Part shown: one piece after another, positions 19,656 to 44,958 of the stretch
Position numbering within the stretch: position 1 is the first letter of the stretch
How the letters are laid out: each line of letters starts with the position of its first letter
NCBI RefSeq assembly: GCF_009914755.1
Contig: NC_060931.1
DNA: 64,000 bases
Source of the DNA: the human T2T-CHM13v2.0 reference genome, Homo sapiens
Strand: one strand, 5' to 3'
Made by a program: the position numbers and the translations under genes
Notes under the pieces: model-generated
The model's input: only the letters and a program-made list of their open reading frames with translations
Databases searched by the model: none
What the model was told of the DNA's origin: nothing

Positions 19656-19777
19656 TCACGTCTGCAGCTCCAGGAGGCAGTTGGGCTCTGAGGGTGGGGA
19701 GCCGGCCGGGCTGGAGCTACGGGCCTCGCGGAGGTCCTGCAGCACCCGGAGCAGCCGGGCCAATGAGTCCTCGGGGA
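19656..19777 (-). CDS. RASA4DP: RASA4-copy terminal coding exon J (VPEDSLARLLRVLQDLRE...LLELQT*)
   Basis: CCACAG|TC acceptor; TGA at 19658-19656. Confidence 0.9.
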
Positions 19778-19888
19778 CTGTGGGCAGAGGCAGCCGTGAG
19801 GGCCCCTGGGAGTGAGCCCGAGGACCCCACCCGTGCATCTCTGGAGGGGGCTCGGGCCACGAGCAAGTCCCAGGTGGGCAAGACCTAC

Positions 19889-19953
19889 CTTTGCCAGGGC
19901 TCGTGGGCACCGTGCCTGCCTCTGTGCCCCCGCTCAGCTCCCGGTGCCTCTCC
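19889..19953 (-). CDS. RASA4DP: RASA4-copy exon I (ERHRELSGGTEAGTVPTSPGK)
   Basis: CCACAG|G acceptor, G|GTAGGT donor; 65 nt. Confidence 0.88.
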
Positions 19954-21102
19954 CTGTGGGGGAGGTCAGAGTGAGGGCCAGCAGCCTCCACTCTCCCTGC
20001 CAGACCTTCTGGTGTCCTTGTGGGAAGGCTGGGGGTGGCCCAGCATGGGCCTCCTGGGCTAGAGGTGGCTCTGGGGGTGATGGCAGGGCTGACTCTTTCA
20101 GTCTGTGAAGAGGCTGGGCCAAGGCCCACCAGGGCACCTTCCACCTTCTCCCTCCCCGTGTCTCCTCCTCCTCCCCATCCCACTGTGGGTTGACCAGAAG
20201 GCCCTTTGCATTTGTTTTGTTTTGTTTTTGAGACAGAGTCTTGTTCTGCGGTCCAGGCTGGAGTGCAGTGGCGCAATCTAAGCTCACTGCAACTTCCACC
20301 TCCTGGGTTCAAGCAATTCTCCTGCCTCAGCCTCCTGAGTAGCTGGGATTACAGGCACCCTCCACCACATCAGTTAATTTTTGTATTTTTAGTAGAGAAG
20401 AGGTTTCGCCATGTTGGCCAGGCTGGTTTCAAACTCCTGATCTCCAACAATCTGCCTGCCTCCACCTCCCAAAGAGCTGGGATAACAGGCATGAGTCACC
20501 GCACCCCACCTTCGTGGGTTTTGAGGGCAGAGATAAACCCTGGAAGAGTCGATGAGGAATGGGGAGGACCACACCCTTCCTCCTTGCAGAGTGTAGGGGT
20601 GTGACAGATGAATGAGCTCCAGCTCCAGTTGGCTCAGGGGAAGCTGAGCGCATGGGAAGCACTGGATCACCTTGAAGTATCCTGGCACCAGCCACATCTC
20701 CAGAGACCCTGAGTGATGGGGCCTTGGCATCCTGTTTTTTAAAGCTGATCTTTAAAAGCATCTTGTTTTTTCTAAGCTTCTGCCAAGGCTGAGAACCACT
20801 GGATGAAGCAAGATGGCCAGGGAACTCAGGGAATTGGCTGAGGCTGTGCCTGTACTCCAAGGGCCCAGGGGAACAGCTGGGCAGGTTGCAAGGTGGGCTC
20901 AGTCAGCACATGGCATGAAGCAGGCATGGCCCTGACCCTTGGGGCCTCTGTCCTAACCTGAGCTGGCCTCGTGCTGCAGAGAGGTACTCCTGGTGCCCTC
21001 CCCAGATGTGGCCAATTACAAGAGAGGTGACCAGCCACCATGGAGCAGCCCCAAGCCTGGCACGTTCCCCAGGCTGCACAGGCTCTCCTGGGTGGGACTC
21101 AC

Positions 21103-21223
21103 CACAGCATGGCCTCCACGCCCAGCAGGTGCCGGTAGATGAGCTGGGCCTCAAGGTCATGGTCAAGAGGGTCATTCCACTCCTGCAGGGTCACCCGTGA
21201 CCGGGTCTTATCGCAGCCCTGAC
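21103..21223 (-). CDS. RASA4DP: RASA4-copy exon H (GQGCDKTRSRVTLQEWNDPLD...EAML-W)
   Basis: CCCCAG|GT acceptor, TG|GTGAGT donor; 121 nt. Confidence 0.9.
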
Positions 21224-41785: not shown

Positions 41786-41799
41786 AATATATAAAGATA

Positions 41800-43110
41800 G
41801 ATGTAGAAATAGATTTAAATTTGTGTGGATATAAATATTCATGAATCTGTTTCCTAGCTCTGTCCACTGAGAGGGGCTAGAAGCTATGACATTCTAGGAT
41901 CAATGACCATGCTCAGCATTAATATCTTAGTTTCCAAATATCATTCTCCAGTAACAGGAACTAGGGATCCTCCAAGAAATGGCTGATTCTAGGGCTGGAG
42001 CAAAAAAAATACAAGATGAGCCCAGAACACATTCTTGTGCCAGAAAGTAAGGAAGTGCAGAAGGAATCACAGGAGCATATCAGAAGGACAAGTGAGCCTA
42101 CCTGAAGGGTGTACACTGGCCAAATGTGGGACAATGATAGCATGAAAAGGAATGACAGTGAGAAACCTAAGTCCACACTGATAAAAAGATGAATAAATAA
42201 GGGAAGAAGAGAAAGTTCTTCCTTATAGTAGAAAGCCACCTAATAAATATAGAAGAAATGATGGAATTAGAAAATCACCATTTGACAACCATCATAACAA
42301 GAGTTGATCTGGGTAAGTATCACCAATAAATCCCAAACTTGTAGGTGAAAATTTTAAGAGGAGTAAGACAACCACATAGTCTCAGAGTATCTCTTCTTGA
42401 GGTGCTTATTAATTTCAAACAGAAAAATAAATAAAAGGTAAATCTGGAAGTCATCACCTTAACCAAGTGATCAAGATGAACAAGTCTAGCAATGGGACAA
42501 GGCAACATCATGTGTTCCTAGTAGAAGATAATTGAGAAGGATACAAGATTGTGTCTTTATATCTTTACCAAAAATACATAGCATGAATCTAATAATAAGA
42601 AAATCGGAAAAATCCAAATTGAAAGAAAATCACAAAATAACCGGCCTCTTCTCTTCAAAGTGTCAATATCATGAAAACTAAAGAAATCCTGAATTTCCTT
42701 TAGATTAAAGGAGACTAAAGAGATGACTACTGAATGCAATACATAACCTAGAATTTTCTTTTGCTATAAAGAACATTATTGGGACAACTGGCAAGACCCG
42801 AATAAGGTATGCAGATTAGAAAATGGTATTATATCAATGTTAATTTCCTGATATAATTGTACTATGATTAAGAGAATGAATATATTTTTAGGAAATATAG
42901 TGATGCATTTAGGTATAAAGGGGCATCGTGTCTTCAGAGAGAGAAAGAGAGAGGTTGAGAGAACAAGAAGATAGAAAGAAAAGGATAAAGCAAATGTGGT
43001 AAGATGTTAGCATCTGAGAAATCTGGGTTAAAGATACATGCAAATTCTTTGCACTAATCTTGCAACTGTCCTGTATATCTGAAATTATGTCAAAATAAAA
43101 GAAAAAGTCA
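41800..43110 (+). mobile_element. Old L1M (L1MC/MD-like) 3' UTR fragment
   Basis: Typical L1M 3' end motifs (gactaaagagatgactactgaatgcaat; tctgaaattatgtcaaaataaaa). Confidence 0.6.
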
Positions 43111-43962
43111 AAACTGTAGAAAAAGTGAACAATTTAGCAATTTAGATCCTGTATACACATATATAGCACTATTATTTTTAAAATTACTTTTTTATTGCAT
43201 TCTGTTCCAATTTGGTTTTGCTTCTTGGTTTTTAATAAACTCTGTTTTTGCTTTAAGACTTTTTAAACTTATTTTTTACTATGACTATCAAATTTCTTAG
43301 AATGTTTTATTCAGTTATATAAAGTTTATCATCTGAAATTCAAAAGTCCTCTAAATCATTTTCTAAAGTATAGCTCTCAGGCATGACAAGGTAACAGCTG
43401 AATACATAGTCAGCCATTACTTAAAAAAAAACCTCTCCTCATATATGGGTATTTCCTAAATGTTCATCTTGCTTTTTAAAGTTCACATAATGAGAATGTA
43501 TAATTCATCATATTCCCCTTTTTGCTTATTTGCTGATAGAAAACAGCAGATTTCAGTGCTCCACTGCAGTAACTATAGTTAGTTAGGTAAATATATATTC
43601 TTTCTATCATTATATGACAAGATATTTTAATTTTATGGAAGTAAATGTAGTATATGCAATAATAAAAGAAATCTTCTTTATTTCATGTACCAACCCACGA
43701 AATGTATGTAACTGACCGAATATATATGCAAATACTTATGCTACGAAAGTATCAGAACCTACACTACTGCATTGGTTCAGAATTACATGATAAATTTTTG
43801 GAAGAAAAGGCAGGGACCATTTTGTTTTAGTGTATCAAGTTGTAAATATCACCTACAGGATATATGTAATAAAGAATTTTGATAATGATATTGGCTTCAT
43901 TTGAATTTTTAAGTACATGTTGAGTTGGGTTTTACTGTAGTAACATATAAAGAAAAATATAC

Positions 43963-44118
43963 CTCATGCAGAAAAATGAAAGCTGGAGTTTCAGATAAAT
44001 CAACAAACCGCTCATCTTGAATGTTAATTGTGGGCACTATGGCATAAATGGGCTCTTGATCCTTTTCATCTTTCTCCTCTTCCTCTTCTTTTTCTGTGTC
44101 TGTGCTACTGTCTTCCAT
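43963..44118 (-). CDS. Duplicated first coding exon of CCDC146 (exon 43963-44129; MEDSSTDTEKEEEEEKDEKDQEPIYAIVPTINIQDERFVDLSETPAFIFLHE)
   Basis: 52 codons matching the recalled CCDC146 N-terminus; acceptor TTTTATTTTAG|AATC at 44130, strong Kozak AAAATGG, donor GAG|GTATAT; no further CCDC146 exon seen before the 32.1 kb junction. Confidence 0.85.
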
Positions 44119-44958
44119 TTTTCACGATTCTAAAATAAAATTAATCCATATGTGGCTATTTAGGAGTGTCTTCACCTATAAAGTAAAATTAATGGAAAAT
44201 AAAAAAATAAGCAAAAAACTGGAATAAGCTATTGTTCAATGAAACTACAAATCAGGAAAGTTAGCTATAATCTCATTATAAAAGACGGCTTTTTTGCAAA
44301 GATACTCTCTATTGTTGCATTCAAATCAATCATTCTTATTTTTAAAAGTATGCTACTGTTGCATTAATTGGAAAATAAAAAATATATATGAATTATATAT
44401 GTAAAATAGATATGAACTATAATGAGAATGCAAGTCAGTATCAGCCTAGACATTTATGAAACAAGAAGCCAGAAACCTCTCCAGCTATCCTATTATAAGC
44501 AAAATGTGCTTTCTGATACCTCTATAATCTATACATTGTACATATTTCTGTAGAAAAGTGCTTAAAACAGTGTATTGTAATTTACTATTTTTCATATTGT
44601 CTACCTTATTGGACTTCTTAGAACAGAAACTATATTCTTATTTACCCATATACCTTCAACACCTAGCAAATAACATACTTATAATGTGTGCTAAAAATAA
44701 TTGCCAACGGGACAAACAAGTTCTGCTGTTCTTCTAATGTCCAAAGAATATTACAATTGCAAATAGTTTACTTGAATTTTCAGAAATAAAATGCTTAACA
44801 CTAAATCAATGCAGTAACAATAATTCATTCACTCCTTATTGGAAAGTTAGTTTGTTCAAAACCAAATTCCCACAGGAGCAAAACTGAGGTTCTTCTGTAA
44901 TTGCTGTGGGCAACTGCTAACACCAGCTTCGAAAATTTTTTTCCTCAGATCATATTGG

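What the first reader, a model, noticed from the sequence alone, without database searches (positions are those of the whole stretch)
19656..44129. Intact in-frame CCDC146-RASA4 chimeric gene (498 aa) hidden in an apparent truncated pseudogene
Seen: a minus-strand exon 43963-44129 with a good acceptor, strong Kozak ATG (44118) and phase-0 donor (GAG|GTATAT) lies 12.5 kb upstream of the first surviving RASA4 exon, whose acceptor is also phase 0 (CAG|GTGGCC, 31431). I checked all ten RASA4 exons: GT-AG sites and phases are intact with no stops. Coding lengths 156+113+193+138+145+170+138+136+121+65+122 = 1497 nt = 498 aa plus stop in the last exon, so the mRNA should not be a junction-dependent NMD target. 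Known: the 52-aa peptide matches the N-terminus of CCDC146 (7q11.23, cilia/sperm protein) and the rest is the RASA4/CAPRI C-terminal part. Inference: juxtaposition of two segmental duplications created a young fusion gene driven from a CCDC146-type promoter right of the window (probably shared head-to-head with FAM185A). I cannot exclude that a transcript model already exists.
Basis: partly seen in the sequence, partly recalled or inferred. Interest (0 to 1): 0.92.

Follow-up and report, generated by a model that had tools for sequence, protein, structure and literature searches.

The report
Annotated CCDC146–RASA4 chimeric pseudogene, conditional ORF
The 498-codon reading frame is really there, but only if an annotated stop-carrying exon is skipped, the locus is the already annotated pseudogene RASA4DP, and any protein made from it would lack the catalytic arginine and calcium-sensing domains of its parent.

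Summary
Eleven minus-strand segments (44118 to 19656) join through GT-AG sites into 1497 nt, giving 498 aa and one terminal stop.

The locus is RASA4DP. Its only RefSeq transcript (hub table) already joins the CCDC146-like exon to the RASA4 exons. That transcript also carries a 162-nt repeat-derived exon (40219-40380) that stops the frame at codon 58.

The gene sits on a junction of two segmental duplications at 32135/32136, with 2 nt of microhomology. One side is an inverted copy, at least 82 kb long, of the CCDC146/FAM185 promoter region. The other is a truncated RASA4 copy, 99.0-99.7% identical to its paralogs.

The break lies 43 nt past the RASA4 exon that carries the finger-loop motif. 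A product would therefore lack that arginine, the start of the RasGAP domain and everything 5' of it.

I found no sign of constraint: 2 copy-specific coding changes, both nonsynonymous, against 1.04 expected. No expression or proteomic data could be examined.

Verdict: a known transcribed pseudogene with a conditional, probably unselected ORF. It remains a modest candidate fusion gene.

The parts
43963..44175 (-). CCDC146-exon-2-like exon. Start codon at 44118-44116, 156 coding nt (52 aa), phase-0 donor after 43963.
   Evidence: The peptide is 52/52 identical to the parent locus C7:78418733 onward. The AG used at 44175 is specific to this copy (the parent has AA). In-frame TGA two codons before the ATG.
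40219..40380 (-). It lies inside an old interspersed repeat of about 600 bp. In-frame TAG at its codon 7 and TAA at its codon 50.
   Evidence: Hub table; 41 of the 42 listed matches lie elsewhere in the genome, 40 of them at 68-79% identity; same core splice sites in the CCDC146 parent, which also carries in-frame stops.
32135..32136 (.). Junction of the two segmental duplications. CCDC146-type sequence lies above it and RASA4-type sequence below it, with 2 nt (CA) of microhomology and no shared repeat.
32135..64000 (-). CCDC146-type duplication (exon 2 and about 11.8 kb of intron 2 within the window). It continues to at least window coordinate 114000 and includes exon 1 (TSS at 89359), the CpG-rich promoter and the 5' part of FAM185A.
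   Evidence: (81,901 aligned columns, 1.45% mismatches, inverted relative to C7:78.349-78.431 Mb).
17434..32136 (-). RASA4-type duplication holding the last ten coding exons and the 3' UTR. The lower limit is set by what I fetched, not by the end of the homology.
   Evidence: 99.69% identity to the copy at C7:103.80 Mb, 99.0-99.4% to RASA4, 98.3% to the 7p13 copy.
31319..31431 (-). First surviving RASA4 exon (113 nt). It enters the RasGAP profile at position 38 of 207, contains no arginine, and carries a copy-specific Leu-to-Pro change at 31400.
30922..31114 (-). RASA4 exon (193 nt), RasGAP profile positions 97-154.
30579..30716 (-). RASA4 exon (138 nt), RasGAP profile positions 158-200. It holds the FLR-type motif ([12 protein letters not shown]).
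   Evidence: aligns to p120GAP chain positions 183-222 and to SynGAP.
29866..30010 (-). RASA4 exon (145 nt), linker.
   Evidence: no Pfam match on its own.
29157..29326 (-). RASA4 exon (170 nt), start of the PH domain.
   Evidence: PH profile 2-36 of 105, E 0.11, below the cut-off.
27030..27167 (-). 138-nt in-frame cassette exon (46 aa, middle of the PH region). A copy-specific T lies at donor position +4 (27026).
24527..24662 (-). RASA4 exon (136 nt) with the BTK zinc-finger motif.
   Evidence: PF00779, E 6.2e-10, profile 1-21 of 30.
21103..21223 (-). RASA4 exon (121 nt).
   Evidence: identical to RASA4 and to the C7:103.80 Mb copy.
19889..19953 (-). RASA4 exon (65 nt) with a copy-specific Ala-to-Thr change at 19925.
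16526..19777 (-). Last exon. The coding part is 19656-19777 (stop codon at 19656-19658); the rest is 3' UTR.
   Evidence: Hub table.

Best explanation
This is RASA4DP, an already annotated, transcribed, duplication-derived pseudogene that sits on the seam of two segmental duplications.

One duplication is an inverted copy, at least 82 kb long, of the CCDC146/FAM185 head-to-head promoter region. It supplies a CpG-rich promoter, CCDC146-type exons 1 and 2, and most of intron 2. The distal, truncated end of the copy-number-variable RASA4 array was joined to it by a non-homologous (2-nt microhomology) event, 43 nt downstream of the RASA4 exon that carries the finger-loop arginine.

Transcripts start at the CCDC146-type promoter. 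The real CCDC146 exon 3 is absent, so they splice into the next usable acceptors: a repeat-derived 162-nt exon with in-frame stops, and then the eleven-from-last RASA4 acceptor. The curated isoform ends translation at codon 58 and should be a target of nonsense-mediated decay.

I read that ORF as a by-product of a 1-in-3 phase match and of RASA4 exons that are nearly identical to their functional paralogs. It is not a selected coding gene.

Any product would have an acidic 52-aa CCDC146 head fused to a decapitated RasGAP domain plus PH-BTK. It could not stimulate Ras or Rap GTP hydrolysis and would lack the C2 domains needed for calcium-driven membrane recruitment.

Shown: the anatomy, the junction, the missing exons and the frame. 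Inferred: promoter use, nonsense-mediated decay, the balance of isoforms and the lack of function.
For: - Annotation: the hub table gives RASA4DP as a transcribed pseudogene. NR_146066.1 has exons 43963-44175, 40219-40380 and 31319-31431 onward, with its first exon ending at 89359, 305 nt from FAM185A (89664).
- Frame: with the 162-nt exon the ORF from ATG 44118 ends at codon 58. Without it the ORF is 498 aa.
- Junction: it lies at 32135/32136.
- CCDC146-type duplication: 81,901 aligned columns at 1.45% mismatch, covering exon 1, the promoter and the FAM185A 5' part. CpG observed/expected is 0.53-0.89 over 89400-90399.
- Missing catalytic part: the RASA4 parent has the exon with TLFRSNSLASK ending 43 nt before the junction. 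None of the three motif patterns occurs in any of the six frames of the window. The first surviving exon enters Pfam RasGAP at position 38 of 207 and contains no arginine.
- No constraint visible: of 14,152 ungapped columns in a four-copy alignment, 12 carry substitutions specific to this copy. Two fall in the 1338 aligned coding columns and both are nonsynonymous, against 1.04 expected from the non-coding rate.
- Domain roles: passages of PMC12871552 say the arginine finger is the catalytic residue of RasGAPs, and that membrane localisation of RASA4 depends on the C2 and PH domains.
- Literature: RASA4DP occurs in 4 papers of the library, each time only as a row in a gene table.
Against: - None of the ten retained RASA4 exons has a frameshift, stop or broken splice site. 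The usual hallmark of a dead pseudogene is therefore absent.
- The 162-nt exon is probably skippable. Its core splice sites are unchanged in the functional CCDC146 parent, where it also carries in-frame stops and so cannot be constitutive. Its sites are no stronger than those of the first RASA4 exon.
- The skipping isoform would end in the last exon and escape nonsense-mediated decay.
- The constraint test has almost no power (2 observed against 1 expected).
- A 2026 preprint reclassifies 236 of 672 duplication-borne pseudogenes as coding from long-read cDNA. RASA4DP might be among them, but I could not open its tables.
- I saw no RNA, ribosome-profiling or proteomic data for this locus.
Confidence: 0.7

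Rival explanations
1. Real fusion gene. An isoform that skips the 162-nt exon is made at useful levels and translated into a 498-aa (or 452-aa) CCDC146-head/RASA4-tail protein. This protein acts without GAP activity, for instance as a PH-BTK membrane or lipid decoy, or as a dominant-negative partner of CAPRI.
For: - The ORF is open with its stop in the last exon.
- The start context is strong, with an upstream in-frame stop.
- The 162-nt exon must be skipped in the CCDC146 parent, where its core splice sites are unchanged.
- The FLR-type motif, the BTK motif and PH pieces are kept.
- Fusions of the same kind with ORFs are reported at duplication seams, including POLR2J-RASA4B (passages of PMC13639854).
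- The gene is detected in short-read expression tables from fibroblasts, Caco-2 and HeLa cells.
Against: - The only curated transcript includes the stop-carrying exon (hub table).
- The RasGAP fold is cut at profile position 38 of 207, so the remnant may not fold.
- A copy-specific Leu-to-Pro change lies ten residues into the RASA4 part.
- Both copy-specific coding changes are nonsynonymous.
- The C2 domains needed for recruitment are gone.
- Short-read counts in 99%-identical paralogs are unreliable.
Confidence: 0.12
2. The annotated transcript itself yields a protein. After the 58-codon upstream ORF, ribosomes reinitiate at the next AUG, the Met four codons into the first RASA4 exon. This gives a 397-aa N-truncated RASA4 fragment, or 443 aa with the cassette.
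For: One search lists a 397-aa ORF starting MQYLHG in the RefSeq exon chain. The 162-nt exon sequence printed shows no ATG between the TAG and that AUG (my reading of the printed sequence).
Against: Reinitiation after an ORF of 58 codons is usually inefficient (established knowledge, recalled). The transcript is a predicted target of nonsense-mediated decay. The product would be as catalytically dead as the fusion.
Confidence: 0.04
3. The transcript acts as RNA. It could be a by-product or regulator of the bidirectional FAM185A promoter, or a competitor for factors that bind the shared RASA4 3' UTR. The ORF would then be irrelevant.
For: The promoter is shared head-to-head with FAM185A, 305 nt apart (hub table). 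The 3.1-kb 3' UTR is nearly identical to that of RASA4. The gene is annotated as non-coding.
Against: Nothing here speaks for a specific RNA function, and I found no conservation beyond that of the paralogs. This is a default possibility, not a supported one.
Confidence: 0.1

Closest known systems
RASA4DP (RefSeq NR_146066.1; ENSG00000233297)
   Same: The same locus and strand. The same CCDC146-type exon 43963-44175 is joined to the same RASA4 exons (hub table; Ensembl id from the tables seen).
   Different: The curated transcript includes exon 40219-40380, which stops the frame at codon 58, and skips cassette 27030-27167.
RASA4 / CAPRI (GAP1-family RasGAP), parent gene about 93 kb to the left
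   Same: The last ten coding exons are shared, with 3 differences in 1341 nt and 2 in 446 aa. The FLR-type motif, PH pieces, BTK motif and C-terminal tail are the same.
   Different: This copy lacks the finger-loop exon, RasGAP profile positions 1-37 and all upstream exons, and has a CCDC146-type head instead. That the upstream exons encode the two C2 domains is recalled and was not scanned here.
CCDC146 (7q11.23)
   Same: A promoter-side duplication of at least 82 kb, including exon 2 with an identical 52-aa start. Its position fits the hg19 coordinates of CCDC146 in a table of PMC8654160, given a similar offset at both loci. This is my inference.
   Different: Only exons 1-2 and part of intron 2 are present here. 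The copy is inverted and 25.6 Mb away.
Fusion genes at seams of segmental duplications (POLR2J-RASA4B, NPEPPSP1-TBC1D3, NOTCH2NL-NBPF, NPIP-PKD1P; PMC13639854, passages seen)
   Same: Two juxtaposed duplications of different origin place one gene's promoter and 5' exons upstream of another gene's exons, and an ORF is maintained.
   Different: Those cases are backed by more than 5 full-length cDNA reads each. For this locus I saw no read evidence, and the one curated isoform is not coding.

Membership tests
Catalytically competent RasGAP (GAP1 family, like RASA4) | Arginine finger in the finger loop, N-terminal in the RasGAP domain | tested here: not met
   The exon with TLFRSNSLASK exists in the RASA4 parent 43 nt beyond the junction. 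It is absent from all six frames of the window. The first surviving exon has no arginine. That this motif is the finger loop is recalled; a 21-aa search of solved structures found nothing.
Catalytically competent RasGAP (GAP1 family, like RASA4) | Complete RasGAP domain (Pfam PF00616, 207 positions) | tested here: not met
   The exon-wise scan covers profile positions 38-71, 97-154 and 158-200 only. Positions 1-37 have no counterpart.
Catalytically competent RasGAP (GAP1 family, like RASA4) | FLR motif (FLRxxxPAxxxP) | tested here: met
   [12 protein letters not shown] in exon 30579-30716 aligns to p120GAP chain positions 183-222 and to SynGAP. The motif definition is from PMC12871552.
Catalytically competent RasGAP (GAP1 family, like RASA4) | Tandem C2 domains N-terminal to the GAP domain | tested here: not met
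   Everything above 32136 is CCDC146-type sequence out to at least 114000. None of the 11 exon peptides hit a C2 family. That RASA4 has two C2 domains upstream is recalled, and is stated in general terms in PMC12871552.
Catalytically competent RasGAP (GAP1 family, like RASA4) | PH domain followed by a BTK motif | tested here: inconclusive
   The BTK motif is clear (E 6.2e-10). PH gives only a partial sub-threshold hit on one exon (E 0.11) because the domain is split over three exons and I could not scan the spliced protein. The RefSeq isoform lacks the 46-aa middle exon.
Protein-coding fusion gene born at a duplication seam | A transcript that joins exons of both parents | tested here: met
   RefSeq NR_146066.1 in the hub table. 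The splice sites were verified. No reads were seen by me.
Protein-coding fusion gene born at a duplication seam | A continuous ORF across the junction in the expressed isoform | tested here: inconclusive
   The frame is open only if exon 40219-40380 is skipped. It is closed at codon 58 in the one curated isoform.
Protein-coding fusion gene born at a duplication seam | Evidence of translation or of selective constraint | tested here: inconclusive
   Constraint: 2 copy-specific coding changes, both nonsynonymous, against 1.04 expected, so there is no power. Translation cannot be tested with these tools.
Transcribed unprocessed (duplicated) pseudogene | A duplicated copy with introns, truncated relative to its parent, and transcribed | tested here: met
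   The introns are retained and the copy is truncated at 32136. It is annotated as transcribed (hub table) and listed in expression tables.
Transcribed unprocessed (duplicated) pseudogene | Disabling lesions inside the retained coding exons | tested here: not met
   No stop, frameshift or lost splice site was found in the ten retained exons.

The most novel reading that the evidence does not exclude
A fusion protein specific to the human lineage. The CCDC146/FAM185A-type promoter would drive, in CCDC146-like tissues, a GAP-dead RASA4 tail (half GAP domain, PH, BTK) with an acidic 52-aa head. This product would compete with CAPRI for membrane lipids or partners and so tune Ras/Rap shut-off. The tiny copy-specific divergence of the RASA4 part (12 of 14,152 columns) allows a very recent origin. 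It equally allows gene conversion within the copy-number-variable array.
Probability: 0.05. Interest if true: 0.7.

Novelty: already known. Interest (0 to 1): 0.3.

Why it matters
If the skipping isoform were abundant and translated, this would be one more young human gene assembled by exon shuffling at a duplication seam. It would also be a natural dominant-negative fragment of a Ras/Rap inactivator. As the evidence stands, it is an annotated pseudogene whose open frame is expected from its youth.

The practical value lies elsewhere:
- The exact junction, the missing finger-loop exon and the stop-carrying exon now give a precise basis for any read-level or peptide-level test.
- The inverted pair of duplications, at least 82 kb long and 25.6 Mb apart, deserves attention from those who call large chromosome 7 inversions.

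Tried and rejected
They may already list or exclude RASA4DP.
- Three short queries found nothing: the 37-aa first RASA4 exon against solved structures, the 21-aa finger-loop exon against solved structures, and a 50-aa stretch around that exon against Pfam. The identity of the finger-loop motif therefore rests on recall.
- A 14-kb genome search of the long intron was swamped by repeats, with only 38 of 51,161 candidates scored. It gave only the RASA4 end of the junction. Shorter queries then found the CCDC146-type parent.
- PMC13122177, on chimeric pseudogenes, contains neither RASA4 nor CCDC146.
- A search for the 7q11.23/7q22.1 evolutionary inversion gave no usable paper. That idea stays a recollection.
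- I did not fold or scan the spliced 498-aa protein, because joined sequence is not accepted by those tools. The domain picture is therefore exon by exon.
- I rejected an Alu- or repeat-mediated origin of the junction, because the two parents share only 2 nt there.
- I rejected dating the fusion from the 99.7% identity alone, because the array is copy-number variable and prone to conversion.

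
Full report
**Observation**

On the minus strand the exon ending at 43963 carries an ATG at 44118-44116, in the context GAAAAATGG. 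An in-frame TGA lies two codons upstream, so the frame cannot start earlier. Its donor is GAG|GTATAT. The first RASA4-type exon opens with CAG|GTGGCC at 31431.

All nine annotated downstream exons have AG and GT flanks.

Joined by coordinates, the eleven segments give 1497 nt, 498 aa and one stop at the very end. Both partners are phase 0 at the fusion point.

The hub table shows that the locus is RASA4DP. Its single RefSeq transcript NR_146066.1 already starts 45 kb to the right (first exon ending at 89359), uses the same CCDC146-type exon, and runs into the same RASA4 exons. So the chimeric transcript model exists.

- It contains a further exon, 40219-40380 (162 nt). Read from the same ATG, this gives TAG at codon 58 and a second in-frame TAA further on.
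- It skips the 138-nt cassette.

With nine junctions downstream of that TAG, the curated isoform is a predicted target of nonsense-mediated decay. The 50-nt rule is quoted in PMC13639854.

**Origin**

The window's own genome could be searched. RASA4-type sequence has 4 copies, all on contig 7, and the CCDC146-type exon has 2 copies, this one and one at 78.42 Mb. Local alignment of the fetched pieces places a sharp seam at window 32135/32136.

- Below the seam, the sequence is 99.69% identical to the copy at 103.80 Mb, which I take to be RASA4B (an inferred label). It is 99.0-99.4% identical to RASA4, the label the hub table gives that span. It is 98.3% identical to the 7p13 copy, taken to be RASA4CP (a recalled label).
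- Above the seam, it is 98.0-98.5% identical, in inverted orientation, to 78.417-78.431 Mb.

Base by base, the two parents share only CA at the seam, so the join was non-homologous.

The CCDC146-type homology continues to the end of what I fetched, window coordinate 114000. That is 81,901 aligned columns with 1.45% mismatches. It covers the first exon, a CpG-rich stretch at 89400-90399 and at least 24 kb of FAM185A.

In the fit, CCDC146 starts at hg19 76,751,751 in a table of PMC8654160. The predicted parent of exon 1 lies near 78.3737 Mb, an offset similar to that at the FAM185A end. I saw no annotation row for it.

**The 162-nt exon**

It lies inside an old interspersed repeat of about 600 bp. 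Of the 42 listed matches, 40 lie elsewhere in the genome at 68-79% identity. I did not determine the repeat family.

In the CCDC146 parent the core splice sites are unchanged and the exon also carries in-frame stops. A functional CCDC146 must therefore skip it, and skipping is plausible here too. By simple counts, its sites are about as good as those of the first RASA4 exon:

| Exon | Acceptor pyrimidines (-23 to -4) | Donor consensus matches |
|---|---|---|
| 162-nt exon | 13 of 20 | 6 of 9 |
| First RASA4 exon | 11 of 20 | 7 of 9 |

I could not measure the isoform balance. That is the open point.

**What a product would be**

An exon-wise Pfam scan gives RasGAP profile positions 38-71, 97-154 and 158-200 of 207, a weak start of PH, and a clear BTK motif. 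The FLR-type motif is kept and aligns to p120GAP and SynGAP. The motif definition comes from PMC12871552.

In the RASA4 parent, the exon immediately upstream reads TLFRSNSLASK and ends 43 nt before the seam. That motif is absent from all six frames of the window, and the first surviving exon has no arginine at all. From recall, this motif is the finger loop that holds the catalytic arginine. Short-query searches could not confirm this.

A product would thus lack the arginine finger, the first part of the GAP fold, and all upstream RASA4 exons, which from recall encode the two C2 domains. Passages of PMC12871552 state that the finger is catalytic and that RASA4 membrane localisation depends on C2 and PH. 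The head is 52 aa with 18 acidic residues.

I infer a GAP-dead protein that may fold poorly, with at best a PH-BTK module. In the cassette-less form even the PH region is cut.

**Selection and age**

Against RASA4 the 1341 coding nt differ at 3 sites, 2 of them amino-acid changes. In a four-copy alignment of 14,152 ungapped columns, 12 substitutions are specific to this copy. Two lie in coding sequence: Leu to Pro at 31400 and Ala to Thr at 19925. Both are nonsynonymous, against 1.04 expected from the non-coding rate.

This gives no sign of constraint, but also no power. The open frame is simply what a copy this similar to working genes should show, and the phase match had a prior of one in three.

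The RASA4 array is copy-number variable. PMC13124242 gives 1-7 copies per allele. PMC10322713 draws a 'partial' 14.9-kb RASA4B fragment, which may be this piece. Gene conversion could therefore keep the exons fresh, and the seam cannot be dated from identity alone. The CCDC146-type duplication is clearly older (1.45% mismatches).

**Literature**

- RASA4DP occurs in 4 papers of the library, always as a table row. Its Ensembl id occurs in 2 of these.
- CCDC146 together with RASA4 occurs in 2 papers, and neither describes this gene.
- Wider searches for duplication, chimeric and paralog names found no description.
- PMC13639854 (passages read) reannotates duplication-borne pseudogenes with long-read cDNA. 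It reports 236 of 672 as ORF-bearing and 51 seam fusions, including POLR2J-RASA4B.

**Verdict**

The thing itself is an annotated transcribed pseudogene at a duplication seam. Its 498-aa ORF is conditional on exon skipping and would encode a catalytically dead fragment. It is a modest candidate for a young fusion gene, not a hidden intact gene.

Noticed in passing
window 32135-64000 and beyond to 114000; parent at G000:C7:78349117-78430774: The CCDC146/FAM185 duplication pair is at least 82 kb long, about 98% identical, inverted, and 25.6 Mb apart. PMC13739014 (passages) reports 'recurrent somatic' inversions of 18-30 Mb in laryngeal tumours, with breakpoints in a CCDC146 intron and in RASA4. 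Such calls could reflect recombination between this inverted pair, or mis-mapping of the germline seam at 32135/32136. The paper names exon 7 of RASA4, which does not match the seam, so this is only a lead.
   Followed up: partly
window 44176-44177: The AG acceptor used by NR_146066.1 at 44175 exists only in this copy; the CCDC146 parent has AA there. The RefSeq-specific 5' extension contains a two-codon upstream ORF at 44149-44141.
   Followed up: partly
window 27026: A copy-specific T (C in the other three copies) lies at donor position +4 of the 138-nt cassette exon, which is the exon the RefSeq transcript skips.
   Followed up: no
L022/L023 (G000:C7:44185500-44203499): The 7p13 RASA4-type copy has 160 substitutions of its own in the same 14 kb. 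It also has a 3-nt length difference inside the first of the ten exons, yet it shows no stop in these ten exons.
   Followed up: no
window 29949-32537 (+): The predicted lncRNA LOC124901713 runs antisense over the first RASA4-type exons and crosses the duplication seam at 32136 (hub table). Its 3' end therefore lies in CCDC146-type sequence.
   Followed up: no
beyond the window: coordinates 89359-90400 (L026): A CpG-rich stretch (observed/expected 0.53-0.89) lies between and just beyond the two divergent starts of RASA4DP and FAM185A. At 7q22.1 FAM185A is whole and CCDC146 is a stump, while at 7q11.23 CCDC146 is whole. This would fit an ancestral head-to-head pair split by a rearrangement with duplicated breakpoints. 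The chromosome 7 inversion history is recalled, and no paper was found.
   Followed up: partly
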